DNA from: a virus
DNA: 64,000 bases
Virus record (IMG/VR): IMGVR_UViG_3300021425_003021
Span: 1-64,000 of that record
Strand: one strand, 5' to 3'
Below the pieces are notes generated by a model. That model saw nothing but the letters and a program-made list of their open reading frames with translations, was not told the origin of the DNA and made no database searches. A program made the translations under genes and the position numbers. Below are positions 706 to 18,137 of this stretch, piece after piece; within the stretch, counting starts at the first letter, position 1; every line of letters begins with the position of its first letter.

Positions 706-1071
706 TTAGATTGCAGTCAATCTTAGCAATGATTCTGTAGAGTCGTCTTCTGCTTCCCATGTATAACGATTGTTATCGTAGTCTACTGCTGTTCTGTTGA
801 ATAACTTTTTGATTGCAATTGGATCACCACCGCTTCCGATGCCAATTAGTTGACATTCTAGATTTGCGTTTGGTGCTGAACCGTCTGATGTAAGTCTGCA
901 TACTCTTGTGATTGTGTCACCATCGTTTGAACAGTTAAATTTATTTGTTCCTCTTTGTGAAAGAATATATCCTTCAATTAAACTTGATCCGTCGTGGAAT
1001 CTAATTGGCACCTTTGGTGTTGCGTCTACACCGGTTGCACCGAAGTTTCTTTTATTTACTGGACGTCCCAT
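706..1071 (-). CDS. Conserved small late (probable virion) protein, MGRPVNKRNFG N-terminus
   Basis: Start revised from 1149 to the ATG at 1071, which has a strong AAAAGGAG RBS. TAAATA late promoter at 1153-1158. Confidence 0.7.
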   Translation of the reverse strand: MGRPVNKRNFGATGVDATPKVPIRFHDGSSLIEGYILSQRGTNKFNCSNDGDTITRVCRLTSDGSAPNANLECQLIGIGSGGDPIAIKKLFNRTAVDYDNNRYTWEAEDDSTESLLRLTAI

Positions 1072-1148
1072 TGTTTTTCTCCTTTTTGACGTTCTAGGTC
1101 TACGCAGTGGGTACTGCATAAGTCCGCCTTGCGGCACACTATTTGACA
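1072..1148 (-). promoter_or_regulatory. Structured 5' leader RNA
   Basis: GC-rich leader with hairpins GCC-GCAA-GGC (GNRA loop) and UAUGCAGU-ACCC-ACUGCGUA between the late promoter and the RBS. Confidence 0.55.
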
Positions 1149-1222: not shown

Positions 1223-1232
1223 CTCTAATAAT

Positions 1233-1447
1233 GTGATAGGTAGGACTAAGGATTACCTACAAGTGCCGTGACATATCCTGTCTACATAACTAGCACAACC
1301 TCACAATAGAATGGTTAGTTCTACTTTCTCTGCAATGCCTTGTCTCCAAGGTCTTACAGCGCCACCACAGCGTGTGAGTCAAGTTACTGCCTATGTGAAG
1401 CAGCGTTTCCTTGCACTATCTAACTAGGACCGTCGTCTTTGTTATGT
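1233..1447 (-). ncRNA. Stand-alone structured ncRNA (~215 nt), possibly manA-like
   Basis: No ORF; has its own sigma70 promoter and terminator. Helices ACAUAAC/GUUAUGU, GAUAG/CUAUC, GUGC/GCAC, CUCAC/GUGAG, CCUUG-GAGA-CAAGG, GUAGAA/UUCUAU, GUAGG/CCUAC. Confidence 0.7.
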
Positions 1448-11385: not shown

Positions 11386-11571
11386 GAAGAATTTGAGAAC
11401 GATATAAAAAGAATAAAAGACACTATCTACAGACTCAGTTGGTATATGAGAGGCGGTATTTCAGTGGATACGTTGTTGTACGATACTGACATGGAAGACC
11501 AAGAAATTATTTCTAAAATAGTCAAAGATAATATTGAAAATACCAAAAACGCTAAAATGCCGTTGCTCTAA
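11353..11571 (+). CDS. gp51-like ORF, probably the C-terminal part of a frameshift fusion with the gp26-like protein
   Basis: LSWYMRGGIS..LL.....D.EII; only a TTG start; lies in the -1 frame relative to the upstream gene. Confidence 0.7.
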   Translation: MLDDSAVQDLAEEFENDIKRIKDTIYRLSWYMRGGISVDTLLYDTDMEDQEIISKIVKDNIENTKNAKMPLL

Positions 11572-13259
11572 CGTGCATTGTCTGCTGCTAGTGCATCAAG
11601 TGCATTTGTTTCGTCACCTGGTCTAACTGTACCTTGAACACCTCTAGGTCTACTACTACTCATTCTTCCAACAGGTTGTACAGGTGAATCACTTCTGCCA
11701 GTTGACGTGCCAATGCCTGCATCAGCTCTATCAATAGCAGCTTGAGCAATATCTACAATCGAATCTTGTGTTGCGTCTTGATCAGAGTCTCGTTCAATTT
11801 TTGCACCAGATCTAGTTAGCACACGATTATCTGGCATTGGAATAGGCTTACCACTGGCCAGTGCTTGAGGAGTAGGAGCAAGATAAAGTTCTTGATTACT
11901 ACCACCAGGTACTGCTCCCATTCTATCACTTATAACTATAATTTCGTGCGTATCTTTTAGTTGTTCAGCCATTTCTGGAGTGTATGTAAAAATATAGTCA
12001 CTCAACTGACCTGCTTGACCCGATGACATTGGTTTTGGATTTAAACTTTCTGCTGGGCGTTCACTTTGATCAATGTCCAATGCATCAAATATGGCATTGG
12101 TTCTGTCACCTAATATCAAATAAGGCACTTTGACTTTTTCCATGTCAGGAGGAAAAATCATATCCTGGAATGCAATTTTTGCCCATTCACTTGAAGAATA
12201 AGCAGTACCAGTTGGCATCTTTTTTACACCGCCTTCAAATGTTAATGCATCTCTTAATGTTGCTCCACCTAATGCTCCGTTGGTTATAGTATCAAGAGAC
12301 ATTGCTGCTATATCTGCTGCATTTCCAACAGTTTCAAAAATTGAAGAAGCAACACTATTTGCAATCCATTTTGCAAACATCATTTGTATACTTGGACGTG
12401 TAAACAAATATACTGCTCCCCAAAATGCTGCTTCAGTAACAATCATGCTGACCAATGCCGGAATAGTGCCTACTCCAGTGGCAGCAGCCCCTGCTTGTAT
12501 TGCTCTTATAGCACCTCTAATTCGACCAATAATTAATGCAGCTCTTACAGCTTTAAACGCCATTGCTAAAACCAATACAACTTGCGAAACAAAGAATCCT
12601 GTTATTACATCTAACAGTTCTTCTTTTTCTGCTGCTCCGCCATCAAATTCACTGTCTGGTGTATGTTTAACTGTATCGTAGTTGACAACAAAGCTTTTGT
12701 ACAACTCTACACTAACACCTAAAATTGCAAAAAGTTTTAACAAACCTTGGAATAAACTATTTGAAAAAATTCTTGTTAGTCTACCATTGCTATTTTTTAT
12801 TGCTGCATCTATTTCTGCAGGCTTCATAGAAGAACCAATTTTGTATTGACTCCACATTCCTCTACCAATTCTCTTGAAATCGGAATCAGAAAATATTCTA
12901 AGAGCTCTGTCTATACTTTGACCACCTCTTAATCTTGAAATAAACTTATCTGCATCAGTTTGTTTTGCAAAACTAAAAGATTCATCTGCTAAATTTACTA
13001 GCCACCTATCTCTTACTTGCACTGGAACGGTATCAGCAGCATCAAAAATTGCTTTGCCAGTGTTAAATGATTTAAATGTTTGTGTTAACCGTTGACCTAT
13101 ACTTCTAGGTGCAGTAGAATTATCAGTGGCTTTTACCCAGCTGTTTCCATTCCACTTGTAATCAACATCACCTAAAGATAATGTTGTCAGTTTAGGAATT
13201 TCAACTGCTTCTTCAGTAATAATAATTTTTTCTTCAGATAATAATTCAACTAATTTCAT
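11568..13259 (-). CDS. Hypothetical late protein with hydrophobic segments (candidate internal head / ejection protein)
   Basis: 563-aa ORF; TAAATA at 13285-13290; N-terminus MKLVELLSEEKIIITEE; three long hydrophobic stretches. Confidence 0.6.
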   Translation of the reverse strand: MKLVELLSEEKIIITEEAVEIPKLTTLSLGDVDYKWNGNSWVKATDNSTAPRSIGQRLTQTFKSFNTGKAIFDAADTVPVQVRDRWLVNLADESFSFAKQTDADKFISRLRGGQSIDRALRIFSDSDFKRIGRGMWSQYKIGSSMKPAEIDAAIKNSNGRLTRIFSNSLFQGLLKLFAILGVSVELYKSFVVNYDTVKHTPDSEFDGGAAEKEELLDVITGFFVSQVVLVLAMAFKAVRAALIIGRIRGAIRAIQAGAAATGVGTIPALVSMIVTEAAFWGAVYLFTRPSIQMMFAKWIANSVASSIFETVGNAADIAAMSLDTITNGALGGATLRDALTFEGGVKKMPTGTAYSSSEWAKIAFQDMIFPPDMEKVKVPYLILGDRTNAIFDALDIDQSERPAESLNPKPMSSGQAGQLSDYIFTYTPEMAEQLKDTHEIIVISDRMGAVPGGSNQELYLAPTPQALASGKPIPMPDNRVLTRSGAKIERDSDQDATQDSIVDIAQAAIDRADAGIGTSTGRSDSPVQPVGRMSSSRPRGVQGTVRPGDETNALDALAADNAR

Positions 13260-13299
13260 TCACAAGTGTTCCAGCTGTATAATGTATTTAGTTATTATA

Positions 13300-13397
13300 A
13301 GTTGAACTAACGTTCAACTGTGTTATCGCTATCGCTCAACACGTATTATTTGTTCTTGATTATAATACTAATAAGGCATATGCAAAGCATATGCTTT
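13300..13397. repeat. Cluster of inverted repeats in AT-rich DNA
   Basis: AGTTGAAC-taac-GTTCAACT; GTGTT-atcgctatcgctc-AACAC; GTATTA...TAATAC; AAGGCATATGC-aaa-GCATATGCTTT. Confidence 0.8.
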
Positions 13398-13401
13398 TAA
13401 T

Positions 13402-13770
13402 ATTATTCAGATTGTGAAGTCATAATTCGCCCGTTGCCGGGCGAAGGTAGCTTTGAAACATTATTCGAGTCGCTTCAGCCATCTTGTTAAAAGAGATTTT
13501 AATGTTATTTCAATATAACACTAAACAAGTTAATGTTACTTTGACTTAACATTAAGTGGAGGCGGTTGACCTGTATCCCCCTACTCTAGCTTCGTCATAT
13601 CAACGGAAGGCAGTTATTCCCTAACAAGCGAAAACACTTACCCTTGGGTTGCTTTTTCTCAGAGCCCATTCCTTTAAAGCCTATCGTATACTTCTTCACG
13701 TGAGCATTCCACACCACCGGCCACGAGCATTACCTCGGCTGGATCTTGGAGTTTAATTAGAGCTCAATAT
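13402..13770 (-). ncRNA. Large structured non-coding RNA downstream of the GIY-YIG gene
   Basis: ORF-free, locally GC-enriched, many helices including UUCGCCCG-GCAA-CGGGCGAA, long-range CAGCC/GGCUG and GUGAAG/CUUCAC, and an 8-bp pseudoknot CUUGUUAG/UUAACAAG. Confidence 0.65.
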
Positions 13771-13775
13771 ATAGC

Positions 13776-14201
13776 CTATTTGTGTTCTAGTAGTGCCTGG
13801 CGTAATTTATTTGAACCACCAACTCGTACATTGATGATACCGTTGTAGTATTCGTCTGTTTCTAATACACGCCTGTCAAATTGTTCTCGTGCTTCAATGT
13901 AAGACATCTCCGCTCTACTTTTGCAAAAGTAAAGTATTTCACGAGTAAAATTTTTTTCGCCTAAGTTTTTTACATCTTCGTTCAGTCTATCTGAACTTCC
14001 CCAGTATTCACGCCAATCGCTTTCTTTGTAGCCTCGACGTTTGTTTTTTTTGCCTTTTAATGGTGGCTTGGTTGTTTTAAACTTTGCTAGTTTTTTGCCT
14101 ACGTATTTTTGTTTTGTCTTTTTGTTTGTGATTAGATATACAAAGCCTTCGTATTCGTCAGGTATTGTTTCAACCTTTTTGCCTTTATATGTCCAACTCA
14201 T
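13776..14201 (-). CDS. GIY-YIG endonuclease (catalytic domain only; T4 EndoII/Seg-like)
   Basis: GFVYLITN-(x6)-YVGKK, WREYWGSS, catalytic-type Glu in MSYIEAREQ, YYN. Confidence 0.8.
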   Translation of the reverse strand: MSWTYKGKKVETIPDEYEGFVYLITNKKTKQKYVGKKLAKFKTTKPPLKGKKNKRRGYKESDWREYWGSSDRLNEDVKNLGEKNFTREILYFCKSRAEMSYIEAREQFDRRVLETDEYYNGIINVRVGGSNKLRQALLEHK

Positions 14202-14204
14202 ACA

Positions 14205-14480
14205 TTATGTATTATCGGAATTGCCTTCGTTTGCCTTTTTTGATTTTTTTGCTTTGCCTTTGTTTACTGCCCATTTTCCACTAGCTCTAATGTCATCAAG
14301 GACCACTGCATAGTGATTTTTAATTTCGTCTTGCCTTTGTTTTGCCAATGTAATCAATTTGCGTAGCTCTCTACGAGCAGCACGTTTTGTTCTTTCACTA
14401 GGACCTTGTTCAAATTTTTCATTTGCTTCAAAGTAATCCAAATATGTTTTTACCAATTGGTCGTGTGTATCGTCGTTCAT
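14205..14480 (-). CDS. Histone H1-like (Hc1-type) DNA-binding protein
   Basis: EKFEQG...TKRAARRELRKLITLAKQRQDEI resembles the Hc1 N-terminal helix; Lys-rich tail. Confidence 0.5.
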   Translation of the reverse strand: MNDDTHDQLVKTYLDYFEANEKFEQGPSERTKRAARRELRKLITLAKQRQDEIKNHYAVVLDDIRASGKWAVNKGKAKKSKKANEGNSDNT

Positions 14481-16252
14481 TCTACAATGTCAATATCGTT
14501 TTCGTATGATGTAAATCCGTTTTCTTTGATAACTTTCATAACATGATTCACTCTACCAATAAGTTCGTCTTTGTGTGAAATGAGGAAAACATTTTTTCTA
14601 CGTTCTCTACCCATCTTTTTAAGTACAGCAAGTGCATTTTCAACACCAGCAGTGTCCATACCCGAGTCGATAAGTTCGTCGATAAACAACAAGTTAACGC
14701 CTTGATACAATGATTCCCAAACATCACGGAATGCAAAACTCATTCCTAGTATTAGCCTGTTGCGTTCGCCTCGAGACAAGTTATCAAAGTCCAGGTCTTG
14801 TCCTAGTTGTGTAATCTCAACTGACAAATCGTTTTGGAATTCAACTTGATGTGGTAAGCCTAGTTTGTCTAAATAATATGTGAGCCTATTGTTCAAGTAC
14901 GCCAAGTTCTGATCAATGATCTTTTTGCGGATGAACGAGTCTTTGTTTGTCAAGAGTTTCAGTAGAAACTCTTGATGTTCTTTTAAACTGGTTAATTGAT
15001 TAACATTTTCCCAGTCAATTTCTTGCAATGCTGTGTTTGTTAAGTCGTCAATTTGTGCTTGATAAGGATCTTCATCTTGCTGTTTATTTACAAGATTTTG
15101 TCTTAAATTATCAACATTGTTTCTGTGTTCGTATGCTTCTTTAGCACTTTCATAAAATGTATTAGGACGCCCGTTAATGTGTCCAATTTCATCTAATAAC
15201 TTCATTGTTGCTTCAAGTTTGTTTGCAACTTCGGTTTGATATGCAAGTGCGTCACTTAATTCTTTTTGTTTTTTGTTTTCAATTTCTGCTTTTTTATCTG
15301 CGTGTAATTCTTGTCCACAAGTGTAACAAATAGCATCGTCAAGGTCTTTGATATCCTTTTCAGCTTTGTCAACACCCTTGGTTGCTCGCATCAATGCACT
15401 TTCCAGTGTGCTTTTTTCTTTGTTTAAACTTGTAATACGATTATTCAGTTCTGTCCAGTTTATAAGCTTGTCGTGTGCATCTAATTCGGCATCAATGTCT
15501 AATTTTTCTAGTTCTTCGATTGCTTTGTCAAGTTTTTCAATGTCTTGTTTTTGTTTTGCAAACCAAGCACGTTGTCTTCCAGCAAGAGTTTCGATACTTT
15601 GTTCAATTTTTTTGTTGCTTGCTTCGATAGCATTGATTTTTAGTGTTTCTTCTGTGATAAAATCTTTGGTTTGTTTGACTTTTTCTTTCAGCAAATCTGC
15701 TTTTTCGGTAAGAATAGTAATGCCAAGTAACTGTTCAATAACTGCACGTTGGTCATTTGCTCTCATACTGAGGAAAGGCTCTGTGTATGTGTTGAGTGCA
15801 ACAATATGTTTGAACATATCGTGGCTCATGTTTAGTAAACTGTCAATTTCTTTTTGTGTTTGACGACTATCGCCTTGAGATTCATCTAAATCTTCTTTTT
15901 GTTCGTGATCATTTATGTAAAACTTTAGTACATTTGGTGATCTGCCACGTTCAATTCTATATTTGTTATTGCCTTTTTCAAAATTTAATGTAACCAACAT
16001 ACCTTTACTATTGGTTTTGTTGATAAGATTGTTTCTTTTGATGTTGGTCAGTGCTTGACCGTACAGTGCGTATGACAATGCATTAATAATTGTAGTTTTA
16101 CCTGTACCGTTGCGTGATCCAGTGTCGTCACCTCCTTGGTCTAAGTTTTCACCAAGCACAAGAGTGAGTTGCTCCTTGTTAAAATCAACTGCTTGGGTAA
16201 CATTACCCACACTCATAAAGTTTTTTACGGTTAAATCTTTAATTTTTATCAT
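14477..16252 (-). CDS. gp46: Recombination exonuclease ATPase subunit (gp46 / Rad50 / SbcC-like)
   Basis: Walker A NGTGKTT, coiled coil with CYTC zinc hook, signature LSRGE, Walker B LLFIDE. Confidence 0.95.
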   Translation of the reverse strand: MIKIKDLTVKNFMSVGNVTQAVDFNKEQLTLVLGENLDQGGDDTGSRNGTGKTTIINALSYALYGQALTNIKRNNLINKTNSKGMLVTLNFEKGNNKYRIERGRSPNVLKFYINDHEQKEDLDESQGDSRQTQKEIDSLLNMSHDMFKHIVALNTYTEPFLSMRANDQRAVIEQLLGITILTEKADLLKEKVKQTKDFITEETLKINAIEASNKKIEQSIETLAGRQRAWFAKQKQDIEKLDKAIEELEKLDIDAELDAHDKLINWTELNNRITSLNKEKSTLESALMRATKGVDKAEKDIKDLDDAICYTCGQELHADKKAEIENKKQKELSDALAYQTEVANKLEATMKLLDEIGHINGRPNTFYESAKEAYEHRNNVDNLRQNLVNKQQDEDPYQAQIDDLTNTALQEIDWENVNQLTSLKEHQEFLLKLLTNKDSFIRKKIIDQNLAYLNNRLTYYLDKLGLPHQVEFQNDLSVEITQLGQDLDFDNLSRGERNRLILGMSFAFRDVWESLYQGVNLLFIDELIDSGMDTAGVENALAVLKKMGRERRKNVFLISHKDELIGRVNHVMKVIKENGFTSYENDIDIVE

Positions 16253-17262
16253 ACCAACTCGTTGTAAATGTCTAATAATAGTCTTTTGTTGAACTGTTCG
16301 CTATCAATTGCTTGGATCTCGTTGCTAACAATCTGATCTACACTCTCAAATTGTTCAATATCCAAGTCTGTGTTGATTTCCTCAATGTGTTTTTGTGGAA
16401 TAAGTGTTATTTCTCGGCATTTGTATTGATCCATGAATGTTTCTTTGATATAACTTGCTTCTTCGTAGCTGATATCAATGTCAAGTGTAACTCTTAGGTA
16501 CATACTTGGCTTGATAAGTGTGTCTTTCTCATCAATCAACTGTGATAACTTAACTGTACGGTACTTGGGACAGTCCGGCCAGTTAACATACTCTGGCTCT
16601 GCATTGTTTTCTCTGTCTAATATCATCATACCACGGTCATCATCCCAAGCATCTGCATAGTTGTGTGGGAAAGCATTGCCAATATAGTGGATCTTACCCT
16701 GCTTCTGCCGTTTGTGGAAGTGTCCGCTGAACACATACTCTTGATTCTTGAAGTGTTCCGACTTTAGTTCACCGTGATCTGGCATTTGTACCATAGCGTT
16801 CATATAAAAACTAGGTAATTCAAAGTGTCCAAACAAATATTTGGCTTGCAACTTCTCCATACGCCGCCATTCGTCGCCTACCAACCACGGAACCAGTGCT
16901 ACATCTTCGATAACTTGTATCTCATCTACCACTGTTACGTTGGGAATGTGCTTGGCAAACTCTGTTGACTTTACATCACGCTTGTCTTTGTAGTACAAGT
17001 CGTGGTTACCAGCAAACATATAGAACTTTTCAAAAGATTCACCTAGTTTCTCTAACAATCGTATGGTTGTATCCATAGTTGTGAGGTTTAAACTGTTCCT
17101 ATTATGGTGCCAGTCGCCGCAAAAGATGCCTGTTTCGCAATTATTTGCTTTTGCTGTTTCGATATACCAATCGATATAGTCCTCACAGTCCTGATTATGG
17201 ACACGTGAGTTGCCTTTCATACCTAAGTGTATGTCTGTAAAGACTGCTGCTTTTTTAAACAA
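16249..17262 (-). CDS. gp47: Recombination exonuclease nuclease subunit (gp47 / Mre11 / SbcD-like)
   Basis: Metallophosphoesterase motifs DIH, GDWHH, GNHD, GHFH; TTG start with GGAG RBS. Confidence 0.95.
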   Translation of the reverse strand: MFKKAAVFTDIHLGMKGNSRVHNQDCEDYIDWYIETAKANNCETGIFCGDWHHNRNSLNLTTMDTTIRLLEKLGESFEKFYMFAGNHDLYYKDKRDVKSTEFAKHIPNVTVVDEIQVIEDVALVPWLVGDEWRRMEKLQAKYLFGHFELPSFYMNAMVQMPDHGELKSEHFKNQEYVFSGHFHKRQKQGKIHYIGNAFPHNYADAWDDDRGMMILDRENNAEPEYVNWPDCPKYRTVKLSQLIDEKDTLIKPSMYLRVTLDIDISYEEASYIKETFMDQYKCREITLIPQKHIEEINTDLDIEQFESVDQIVSNEIQAIDSEQFNKRLLLDIYNELV

Positions 17263-17284: not shown

Positions 17285-17313
17285 AGTATAGTGTAGAAAA
17301 TTTAATAAATCAA
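17285..17313 (-). promoter_or_regulatory. sigma70-type promoter for the gp47-gp46 operon
   Basis: TTGATT-17 bp-TATACT. Confidence 0.65.
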
Positions 17314-18137
17314 CCTTTATTTAGGCCTTCTCTGCGTTGCGCTGCTTCCCATTCGCCTGCGTGTTGTCTAGTATGCGATGGATTTAAGTTATTCATTTCT
17401 AAAATATCGTCTCTAATGTTTTGATTACGCTTTTCCAAGTTGATAACACGTACAAAGCTATTTGTAACTGCTGCTGTGTAATAAGCAAACGGGTTATTTG
17501 ATTTTGATTCGTCAAATTGCAAGCCAATTTGCGATAATTGCAGTATTGCTTGACCTTTCATTTCGTCATTGTAAGTATAACCACGAACATTGCCTCTTGT
17601 GGCATAGCGATCTACCAGTTTCATCCACATACGAGCTAATTCGTTAGTGGCTGTACCGTGAACTTTAGAAAAATGTCCGTTTTCCATTCCGCCAACCCAA
17701 TGACTTTTGCCTACACATACTAATTCACCGTTTTCGTCAAACTTGTAGTGCTGAAAAGGCGGAAAATTTAGTTTTGTTTTTGTATCTGCTATGGTTTTTG
17801 GAGTTTTTTTACGACCCGGTTCGTCTGGAATATGATCAAACATCATTACTCTAAATATTAAATCAGTTTTTTCAATAGATCTATAATCAACTTCGAACTC
17901 GGCCATTTTTACTTTTTTATTAACTGCTTTGGCTGCTTCATATGCCTCGGTTGACATTTTTTTAGCACGGTTTCTTTTTGCTTCTGCTATAGTTCTAACA
18001 TTGATTTTGTCTTTACTAGGTAAGATAATATCATATGTTGCATATGCAGGATCAACGTAACTGCAAAATGTACTTTTGCTCTTGTGTATTTCCTTTAACA
18101 TATCTTTATTGTTTAGATAATTTACTCTTTTGGCCAT
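17310..18137 (-). CDS. gp55: Late-transcription sigma factor (gp55-like)
   Basis: NYLNNKDML, NVRGYTYNDEM, FDESKSNNPFAYYT...SFVRVINLEKRNQ; located next to gp47/gp46 as in T4. Confidence 0.88.
   Translation of the reverse strand: MAKRVNYLNNKDMLKEIHKSKSTFCSYVDPAYATYDIILPSKDKINVRTIAEAKRNRAKKMSTEAYEAAKAVNKKVKMAEFEVDYRSIEKTDLIFRVMMFDHIPDEPGRKKTPKTIADTKTKLNFPPFQHYKFDENGELVCVGKSHWVGGMENGHFSKVHGTATNELARMWMKLVDRYATRGNVRGYTYNDEMKGQAILQLSQIGLQFDESKSNNPFAYYTAAVTNSFVRVINLEKRNQNIRDDILEMNNLNPSHTRQHAGEWEAAQRREGLNKG

What the first reader, a model, noticed from the sequence alone, without database searches (positions are those of the whole stretch)
13402..14201. Minimal GIY-YIG nuclease followed by a ~370-nt pseudoknotted ncRNA: candidate new nuclease-RNA system
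Seen: immediately after the nuclease stop codon is the largest ORF-free gap in the window. On the same strand it folds extensively: closing helix CAGCC(13741-13737)/GGCUG(13480-13476); CCGAG-GUAAUG-CUCGUGG; UGGG...CCCA around a CUGAGAAAA loop; a long hairpin AAGGGUAAGUGUUUUC/GGGAAUAACUGCCUU whose loop CUUGUUAG (13628-13621) pairs with UUAACAAG (13490-13483); CGUU/GACG; AGAG/CUCU enclosing GGGGG/CCUCC and two AU-rich hairpins that look like variable insertions; UGAAGC/GUUUCA; UUCGCCCG-GCAA-CGGGCGAA; long-range GUGAAG(13699-13694)/CUUCAC(13419-13414); and GAAUAAU twice near the 3' end. The GNRA loop and G-U pairs indicate the minus strand. No separate promoter is visible, so it is probably co-transcribed with gp47-gp46-Hc1-GIY-YIG. 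The 141-aa nuclease has only the catalytic domain, without the NUMOD/HTH specificity domains of homing GIY-YIGs, plus a very basic insert (KTTKPPLKGKKNKRRGYK). I do not recognise group I/II intron, RNase P, tmRNA or 6S signatures. Inference: a ribonucleoprotein in which the RNA scaffolds, guides or regulates the nuclease, or a primer RNA for replication/recombination initiation together with gp46/47.
Basis: partly seen in the sequence, partly recalled or inferred. Interest (0 to 1): 0.88.

Follow-up and report, generated by a model that had tools for sequence, protein, structure and literature searches.

The report
Twin-box structured RNA behind phage nuclease
The gene-free stretch behind a small nuclease gene of this uncultured aquatic giant T4-like phage encodes a real, knotted RNA of about 400 bases that carries the same short word twice. 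The RNA matches no Rfam family, its job is unknown, and nothing shows that it guides the nuclease.

Summary
Window 13260-13775 is a 516-nt ORF-free gap, and its minus strand encodes a conserved, pseudoknotted non-coding RNA. The RNA runs from about 13775 to a terminator-like hairpin at 13394-13376.

- **Structure:** on 20 relatives, a 71-pair structure is 93% paired. It has 13 pairs with compensatory changes, which 0 of 500 shuffles reach.
Three helices are not: the two long-range ones and the CGUU/GACG hairpin.
- **Twin boxes:** the GAAUAAU repeat is the key feature. ACUC+word (13470-13460) and AUCU+word (13412-13402) stay identical across more than 200 relatives while the word itself changes (15 variants). 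No complementary partner was found in cis or in six phage genomes.
- **Catalogue status:** Rfam has no match here. In sister lineages the 5' domain is the orphan motif RF01718.
- **Earlier sightings:** this scan has met the same family many times on other phage DNA, under the name "twin-box RNA".
- **Link to the nuclease:** the link is conserved gene order, not shown partnership. The nuclease family occurs without the RNA in four cultured phages. In some relatives an unrelated PD-(D/E)xK nuclease or an unknown ORF holds the upstream place.

My best guess is a scaffold that shows two identical words to an outside nucleic acid. The function remains open.

The parts
13370..13775 (-). Twin-box non-coding RNA, about 400 nt. 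It runs from just after the nuclease stop codon to the tail of the terminator-like hairpin. The ends are inferred, not mapped.
   Evidence: Conserved at 80-97% in 17 or more close relatives. A 71-pair structure has 13 compensatory pairs, reached by 0 of 500 shuffles. Model R1 scores 90 bits at 13397-13501.
13701..13766 (-). 5' domain. Helix 13766-13762 / 13705-13701 encloses helix 13750-13747 / 13711-13708 and hairpin 13737-13734 / 13727-13724.
   Evidence: Three of five pairs of the outer helix show double changes (GAGC/GCUC, GGAC/GUCC, UGAC/GUCA). UCCA/UGGA changes to UUCA/UGAA in two relatives.
13607..13644 (-). Long hairpin. Its loop (13628-13622) forms pseudoknot 1 with 13489-13483.
   Evidence: The hairpin is 96.9% paired with three double-change pairs. 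The pseudoknot is 99.3% paired with one compensatory pair plus G-U variants. In the wider set, 7 of 7 pairs change on both sides.
13565..13604 (-). Pseudoknot 2: GUUG (13604-13601) pairs with CAAC (13568-13565) in the loop of the G-rich hairpin (13581-13577 / 13562-13558).
   Evidence: Paired in 61 of 61 sequences, with UA to CG in 9 and GC to AU or GU in 10. The competing local hairpin is not kept.
13492..13587 (-). Helix AGAG/CUCU, closing the G-rich hairpin and a variable AU-rich insert (13557-13499).
   Evidence: Two of four pairs are compensatory within family A and four of four in the wider set. The insert varies from about 10 to 60 nt.
13460..13470 (-). Box 1: ACUC plus the word GAAUAAU, in the 12-nt loop of hairpin 13480-13472 / 13459-13449.
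   Evidence: The stem varies (76.7% paired).
13426..13445 (-). 8-bp hairpin with a GCAA loop between the boxes, followed by UGAC (13422-13419).
   Evidence: 99.4% paired. UGAC is invariant in 23 diverse members.
13402..13412 (-). Box 2: AUCU plus the same word GAAUAAU, single-stranded, 8 nt before the terminator-like hairpin.
   Evidence: Both boxes change together in relatives.
13376..13394 (-). Terminator-like hairpin (8 bp, 3-nt loop, U-rich tail). It reads as a terminator on both strands.
   Evidence: Conserved in family A.
13776..14201 (-). 141-aa GIY-YIG nuclease with the catalytic domain only. A conserved upstream neighbour.
   Evidence: PF19835 at E 8e-33 and phrog_447. It sits directly upstream of the RNA in 73 of 90 type-B loci and in most type-A/C loci.
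13260..13375 (-). Spacer with two more hairpins and a TAAATA late-promoter-like box, ahead of the hypervariable gene 11568-13259.
   Evidence: TAAATA is invariant in alignment A1. The downstream gene is 233-563 aa long and 28-65% identical among relatives.

Best explanation
This is a genuine non-coding RNA gene of the 'twin-box' family of aquatic giant (about 360 kb) T4-like phages.

**Shown**
- The RNA lies on the minus strand.
- It has a core with at least two pseudoknots that is conserved through compensatory changes.
- It ends in two tandem pseudo-repeat modules (RUGRC, a few bases, A-YYY, then the word) that flank a GNRA-capped hairpin.
- The 6-8-nt word of the two modules is kept identical while it drifts between phages.

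**Inferred**
- The RNA is made as the 3' end of the gp55-gp47-gp46-orf-nuclease transcript and stopped by the hairpin at 13394-13376.
- The core is a scaffold that holds the two words single-stranded. One word sits in a hairpin loop and the other in the linker before the terminator.
- The words base-pair with two copies of one complementary sequence on an outside nucleic acid. The partner could be two molecules, a tandem site, or the two strands of an inverted repeat.
- The nuclease is a syntenic neighbour whose partnership with the RNA is unproven.
For: - **Reality and strand:**. The structure is 93.2% paired, has 13 double-change pairs reached by 0 of 500 shuffles, and slid controls give 1-5 such pairs. 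One-sided changes give G-U only on this strand.
- **Twin words:**
  - 107 of 119 type-A/C loci have identical 7-mers, and the other 12 agree in 6 of 7 positions.
  - 113 of 114 unique type-B RNAs are identical over 6 nt.
  - 15 different words were seen.
  - In L070/L074 and in L028, the two box columns are the only RNA columns that changed.
- **Words kept free:**
  - No complement within 3 kb.
  - The complement is depleted in the 160 nt downstream, 10 loci against 23.5 expected.
  - It is not enriched in the RNA body, 31 against 23.8.
- **Pseudo-repeat modules:**
- **Copy number:** a single strong match per genome in five relatives' records, including two complete genomes.
- **Terminator-like hairpin:**
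Against: - No partner was found. Of 747 word or complement sites in six phage genomes, 151 were alignable and none covaries with the word. A phage-encoded partner would have to lie in unalignable DNA, or the partner is host-encoded.
- Identity of the words could have a cause other than pairing.
- The ends of the RNA are inferred only.
Confidence: 0.4

Rival explanations
1. One reading: the RNA and the upstream small nuclease form a ribonucleoprotein. The RNA scaffolds the enzyme or guides it through its two identical words, for example to the two strands of an inverted repeat.
For: - A nuclease gene lies directly upstream in about 83% of the type-B loci with enough upstream DNA, and within 2.5 kb in 94%.
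- Two unrelated nuclease folds, GIY-YIG and PF24608 PD-(D/E)xK, hold the same place.
- The nuclease has no DNA-binding domain.
- The words behave like programmable guides.
Against: - The whole block is vertically inherited synteny.
- GIY-YIG homologues occur without the RNA in four cultured phages.
- Radical-SAM genes and other ORFs are inserted between nuclease and RNA in several lineages.
- Five loci have no recognisable nuclease.
- A 6-nt guide is very short.
- No binding was tested.
Confidence: 0.08
2. The words must be identical because their complement is made afresh. A polymerase copying one box re-anneals its nascent strand on the other box (copy-choice or reiterative copying of the roughly 58-nt unit). 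This would resemble coronavirus TRS cores, retroviral R regions or the repeat-bounded template of DRT2 ncRNA.
For: - Identity without any encoded complement in cis or trans.
- The word length of 6-8 nt is typical of microhomology.
- A stable hairpin lies between the repeats.
Against: - No reverse transcriptase or RNA-dependent polymerase gene turned up among the neighbouring genes that I scanned.
- The unit length varies from 54 to 67 nt and is not held to multiples of three. The window's own unit carries stop codons on both strands by eye, so it gives no repeat-encoded ORF.
- The idea is pure inference.
Confidence: 0.07
3. The two pseudo-repeat modules are alternative or paired docking elements. 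They either compete for one receptor in the core (a two-state switch) or bind the two halves of a protein dimer.
For: - The modules share RUGAC, the spacing, the A-YYY prefix and the word.
- In type B one core segment (GUAGGU) could pair with the prefix of either module or with a third look-alike segment.
Against: - A cis receptor that reads the word by pairing should covary with it, and none does.
- A protein would have to change specificity 15 times.
Confidence: 0.15
4. The RNA has no trans role. It is a structured 3' UTR or insulator that stabilises the early operon transcript and separates it from the late gene downstream.
For: - It lies between an early or middle operon and a late promoter.
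- A bidirectional terminator-like hairpin follows it.
Against: About 400 nt of pseudoknotted structure and co-evolving twin words are far more than a stabiliser needs. The core is conserved from 51% to 100% nuclease identity.
Confidence: 0.1
5. The words are codon-like displays (three bases followed by an invariant A, as in a T-box specifier loop) that bind the anticodon loops of two tRNAs.
For: - Position 6 of the word is A in every variant, and positions 3-5 read AUG, AUA, GUG, AUC, AGA, AGG or CGA.
- Relatives carry about 32 tRNA genes, a tmRNA and a suppressor-like tRNA.
Against: - Near-complete tRNA sets make any match uninformative.
- Switching between AUG and AUA would change the tRNA species.
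- No platform for the tRNA elbow or the acceptor end was identified.
Confidence: 0.05

Closest known systems
Polynucleobacter-1 RNA motif (Rfam RF01718; Weinberg et al. 2010, PMC2864571)
   Same: In 11 of 15 divergent twin-box loci tested at Rfam's gathering score, plus L080, the first 140 nt or so of the RNA is a full-length RF01718 match at 62-117 bits. It lies in the same place behind the nuclease gene. RF01718 is likewise an orphan motif from fresh and estuarine water.
   Different: The window's RNA and type B give no RF01718 hit, even at E up to 10 for the window and up to 1 for type B. RF01718 covers only a 5' domain. The twin-box 3' domain and the pseudoknotted core are not in Rfam. The only paper found that names the motif is the 2010 survey.
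Large ornate orphan RNAs: GOLLD (RF01998), ROOL (RF03087), OLE
   Same: Several hundred nucleotides, many helices and pseudoknots, often phage-borne, found by comparative analysis, function unknown.
   Different: No sequence or model match. None of those is known to me to carry two co-evolving identical words; this rests on my own knowledge.
T4 endonuclease II (DenA) and Seg-type GIY-YIG endonucleases, for the protein
   Same: A GIY-YIG catalytic domain of about 140 aa with no DNA-binding domain, as in T4 EndoII (my own knowledge). In phage Melnitz the homologue lies just after the small ribonucleotide reductase gene; from memory, unchecked, T4 denA lies near its nrd genes.
   Different: The best Pfam match is the SegE-type domain. 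No solved relative was found by sequence. Unlike mobile Seg genes, this gene is vertically inherited at a fixed place.
Repeat-bounded templates and matched sites: coronavirus TRS cores, DRT2 ncRNA, T4 gene 60 take-off and landing codons
   Same: Two short identical sequences are required although no complement is encoded.
   Different: This is an analogy only. No polymerase or reading frame is associated here, and the region between the boxes is not coding.

Membership tests
Twin-box RNA (informal family of this scan, unpublished) | Two identical 6-8-nt words, the first after ACUC and the second after AUCU, 43-56 nt apart | tested here: met
   The window has GAAUAAU at 13466-13460 and at 13408-13402. 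The rule holds in 107 of 119 and 113 of 114 relatives.
Twin-box RNA (informal family of this scan, unpublished) | A GNRA-capped hairpin and an invariant UGAC between the boxes, and a match to a model of the 3' domain | tested here: met
   Alignment A5. Model R1 scores 90 bits in the window, which is a training member. It scores 63-91 bits in four genomes outside the training set.
Twin-box RNA (informal family of this scan, unpublished) | A pseudoknotted core supported by covariation | tested here: met
Polynucleobacter-1 RNA (RF01718) | Covariance-model score at or above the gathering score of 37 bits | tested here: not met
   No hit in the window at the gathering score or at E up to 10. The feature is met only by the 5' domains of sister lineages.
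tmRNA (one-piece or two-piece) | A tRNA-like domain and a tag reading frame, found by ARAGORN or Rfam | tested here: not met
   ARAGORN finds nothing in the window, and there is no Rfam hit. The complete relative G006 has a separate permuted tmRNA elsewhere.
Group I/II intron, RNase P RNA, 6S RNA, known riboswitches and ribozymes | A match to the Rfam model | tested here: not met
   Only chance-level hits, such as U2 and snoRNAs at E 0.1-8.
GIY-YIG nuclease, SegE-type domain (PF19835) | A Pfam match above the cut-off across the whole domain | tested here: met
   113.7 bits against a cut-off of 25, covering profile positions 1-123 of 123.
Mobile (homing) Seg-type endonuclease | An added DNA-binding domain and a patchy, mobile distribution | tested here: not met
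   The protein has only the catalytic domain. It keeps a fixed place in a conserved gene order, down to 51% identity.
RNA-guided nuclease systems (OMEGA/TnpB/IscB, CRISPR) | A RuvC or HNH effector with an adjacent guide RNA whose variable guide matches targets | tested here: not met
   The protein is a 141-aa GIY-YIG domain. No target was found for the words. Binding cannot be tested with these tools.
Intrinsic terminator | A G+C-containing hairpin followed by a U-rich tail | tested here: inconclusive
   There is a consensus hit at 13394-13376 with the tail CUUAUUAGUA. The 3' end has not been mapped.

The most novel reading that the evidence does not exclude
The RNA is the programmable half of a phage RNA-guided nuclease. 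Its scaffold shows two identical 6-8-nt guides that pair with the two strands of an inverted repeat (or with two copies of a target) and brings in the small domain-only nuclease encoded just upstream. That nuclease can be a GIY-YIG or, in other lineages, a PD-(D/E)xK enzyme.
Probability: 0.06. Interest if true: 0.95.

Novelty: new variant of a known kind. Interest (0 to 1): 0.6.

Why it matters
This is a widespread RNA, present in hundreds of contigs, as a single strong match in each of the five relatives' records searched, including two complete genomes of about 364 kb. It is about 400 nt long, intricately folded, and of unknown function. That puts it in the small class of large orphan RNAs such as GOLLD, ROOL and OLE.

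Its twin words give an unusual evolutionary signal: identity is conserved while sequence is not, and no complement is encoded. That signal points either to an outside nucleic-acid partner or to a copying mechanism, and either can be tested directly.

The work also shows that the Rfam motif RF01718 is only the 5' domain of a much larger RNA. The replacement of one nuclease family by another in front of the RNA is a new clue that keeps a nuclease link open.

Tried and rejected
- **Rfam and ARAGORN:** no family matches.
- **Single-sequence folding:** not significant.
- **Search of cultured phages:** blastn with RNA types A, B and C found no match.
- **Scan of 185,579 prokaryote genomes** with the type-A/C 3' motif: six hits, all chance matches in GC-rich MAGs with no twin words.
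- **Partner for the words:** nothing was found. I looked in the RNA, within 3 kb, downstream and in the RNA body, and at homologous places in four and then six phage genomes.
- **Stop-codon idea:** positions 4-6 read UAA or UGA in the first words seen. The words GACGAA, ACAUCA, ACAGGA and ACAGAA rule this out.
- **A small ORF from box 1 to UGAC:** rejected, because the spacing varies by one or two bases.
- **Pairing of CAGGU in the G-hairpin loop with the box-2 prefix:** no covariation, and one break.
- **Fold of the Cys-rich ORF upstream of five loci:** mean pLDDT 39.9, unusable, so no fold search was run.
- **Solved structures for the nuclease:** nothing of use.
- **Final tally scripts:** one used a faulty non-overlapping pattern. 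The last one stopped with an error because at least one of the two Melnitz loci held no stretch fitting even the loose module pattern.

Full report
**What is there**

The window belongs to a 105-kb fragment that CheckV rates 29% complete. Complete relatives are 364 kb, so this is an uncultured giant T4-like phage. On the minus strand the genes run in this order:

| Window position | Feature |
|---|---|
| 17310-18137 | gp55 |
| 16249-17262 | gp47 |
| 14477-16252 | gp46 |
| 14205-14480 | 91-aa ORF |
| 13776-14201 | 141-aa GIY-YIG protein (only PF19835, E 8e-33) |
| 13260-13775 | 516-nt gap with no ORF |
| 11568-13259 | 563-aa gene with no family |

**Is the gap an RNA?**

Folding of the single sequence is unremarkable: z -1.5 on the minus strand and -2.5 on the plus strand. 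Rfam and ARAGORN find nothing there. The evidence is therefore comparative.

A search of IMG/VR with the nuclease gave 80 loci, and almost all have a gap of 470-870 nt behind the gene. The gaps fall into three groups:
- family A, which includes the window (80-97% identical);
- family B (67-92% identical among themselves);
- a single locus, L080.

All three show blocks of strict conservation, a variable hairpin insert, and many compensatory changes.

On a 20-sequence alignment of family A I tested a 71-pair structure:
- 93.2% of cells pair.
- 13 pairs change on both sides, which 0 of 500 shuffles reach.
- Versions with the 3' partner slid by one to three columns give 1-5 such pairs.

One-sided changes give G-U pairs on the minus strand, for example opposite the invariant hairpin loop at 13628-13622. 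So the RNA has the sense of the nuclease gene.

| Helix | Verdict | Evidence |
|---|---|---|
| Long hairpin | Confirmed | |
| Its loop pairing with the 3' side (pseudoknot) | Confirmed; true U-A to G-C swap in L135/L198 | |
| AGAG/CUCU | Confirmed | |
| G-rich hairpin | Confirmed | |
| GCAA-capped hairpin | Confirmed | |
| UGGG/CCCA | Confirmed by eye only | |
| Closing helix CAGCC/GGCUG | Not supported; changes only break it | |
| GUGAAG/CUUCAC | Not supported; changes only break it | |
| CGUU/GACG hairpin | Not supported; replaced by a second pseudoknot | |

The second pseudoknot pairs 13604-13601 with 13568-13565. It is paired in 61 of 61 sequences and shows compensatory changes.

**The twin boxes**

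- Box 1 is ACUC plus a word, in a hairpin loop.
- Box 2 is AUCU plus the same word, after a GNRA-capped hairpin and an invariant UGAC.
- The window has GAAUAAU at 13466-13460 and at 13408-13402.

Two motif scans that did not depend on the nuclease gave 119 and 120 more loci.
- 107 of 119 type-A/C loci have identical 7-mers, and the other 12 agree in 6 of 7 positions.
- 113 of 114 unique type-B RNAs are identical over six bases.
- 15 different words occur, and only position 6 (A) is constant.
- Where close relatives differ in the word, the two box columns are the only RNA columns that changed.
- The boxes belong to longer tandem pseudo-repeats: RUGRC, a few bases, A-YYY, then the word.

**Search for a partner**

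- There is no complement in the RNA or within 3 kb.
- The complement is depleted downstream, 10 loci against 23.5 expected.
- It is at chance level in the RNA body.
- I then took six phage genomes with five different words, one of them complete and one 70% complete. Of 747 word or complement sites, 151 could be aligned to a genome with another word, and none changes with the word.

A phage-encoded partner in conserved DNA is therefore unlikely. A host partner, a partner in fast-evolving DNA, or a reason other than pairing all remain possible.

**Relation to the nuclease**

The block gp55-gp47-gp46-orf-nuclease-RNA-variable gene is conserved down to 51% nuclease identity. That is vertical inheritance, not a mobile cassette.

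Among 90 type-B loci with enough upstream DNA:

| Upstream of the RNA | Loci |
|---|---|
| GIY-YIG gene directly upstream | 73 |
| GIY-YIG with other genes in between | 9 |
| PF24608 PD-(D/E)xK nuclease (2 adjacent, 1 with a gene between) | 3 |
| Neither within 2.5 kb | 5 |

- In the type-A/C set, L215, L216, L120 and L156 also have the PD-(D/E)xK gene directly in front of the RNA, and radical-SAM genes are inserted in L133 and L156.
- The five loci with neither nuclease carry small ORFs with no family match just upstream of the RNA. In three of them it is a shared Cys-rich ORF of about 155 aa. Its predicted fold was unusable.
- The GIY-YIG family also occurs in phages Melnitz, S-SRM01, phiN3 and P-HM1 with only 0-150 nt behind the gene.
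- A covariance model of the 3' domain (R1) finds nothing in those four genomes. The same model finds the RNA as the one strong match in each of five relatives' records; four of these are outside its training set.

So the nuclease does not need the RNA. The RNA keeps a nuclease-type neighbour in most lineages but not all. I did not see the swap of nuclease family in the earlier notes of this scan that I retrieved. It fits either a functional tie or a plain nuclease slot in the recombination operon.

**Known families**

- RF01718 (Polynucleobacter-1) hits the first 140 nt or so of the RNA in L080 and in 11 of 15 divergent loci. It does not hit the window or type B.
- RF01718 is therefore a fragment of a larger RNA, and the window holds a diverged variant.
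- The only paper found that names the motif is the 2010 survey.
- The 2023 catalogue of viral structured RNAs lists only elements of 29-151 nt.
- No type-A/C 3' module occurs in 185,579 prokaryote genomes.
- No cultured phage matches by blastn.

**Transcription**

A terminator-like hairpin follows box 2 at 13394-13376. Further on lies an invariant TAAATA late-promoter-like box ahead of the variable gene. The RNA is therefore most likely the 3' end of the upstream operon and not the leader of the next gene. Expression could not be checked.

**Earlier notes of this scan**

The same family was found many times on other phage DNA. My tests agree with those notes on the reality of the RNA, on the twin boxes and on RF01718. 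I found no support for one note's statement that the family is also bacterial.

**Verdict**

This is a real, unusual orphan RNA. The nuclease-RNA system is unproven, and I put it at 6-8%. My leading reading, at about 40%, is a scaffold that shows two identical words to an outside nucleic acid.

Noticed in passing
window 1230-1440 (-) and 1069-1138 (-): Rfam finds a manA RNA (59 bits) and a freshwater-2 RNA (53.9 bits) at the gathering score. These probably correspond to two other first-stage notes on this window.
   Followed up: no
window 11568-13259 (-): The gene after the RNA is hypervariable among close relatives: 233-563 aa long and 28-65% identical, with no Pfam or PHROG family. It sits behind a late-promoter-like TAAATA box and faces a gp26-like baseplate hub gene. 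It may be a host-recognition protein.
   Followed up: partly
G006 (L238, L241, L243, L244) and G007 (L249, L250): Complete or near-complete relatives carry about 32 tRNA genes, a permuted two-piece tmRNA (tag ANDNVYALAA), and a tRNA with anticodon CUA that could read amber codons.
   Followed up: no
L215:3333-3899, L216:9296-9811, L120:12262-12774, L156:6572-7087: In these relatives a PF24608 PD-(D/E)xK endonuclease (phrog_244, annotated as RusA-like resolvase) takes the place of the GIY-YIG gene directly in front of the RNA.
   Followed up: yes
L133:8054-9025 and L156:7140-8072: Radical-SAM genes (with a weak, sub-threshold SPASM match in L133) are inserted next to the nuclease gene. In L133 the insert lies between the nuclease and the RNA; in L156 it lies upstream of the nuclease.
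   Followed up: no
L303:12803-13282, L318:4509-5003, L371:1084-1542: A Cys-rich ORF family of about 155 aa (two CxxC pairs), with no Pfam or PHROG match, lies upstream of the RNA where no known nuclease is present. The AlphaFold model was too poor to use.
   Followed up: partly
G007:C1:60976-61078 (+): There is a weak second match to the twin-box 3'-domain model (33.9 bits, E 5e-4). It could be a degenerate second copy or chance.
   Followed up: no
window 14205-14480 (-): A 91-aa ORF between gp46 and the nuclease is conserved in relatives (29-81% identity) but has no family match.
   Followed up: no
L001 (Melnitz MZ577097.1, 30449-30889): The closest cultured homologue of the nuclease (68% identity) lies two genes after the small ribonucleotide reductase subunit gene. 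From memory, T4 denA also lies near nrd genes, so it may be an endonuclease II counterpart.
   Followed up: partly
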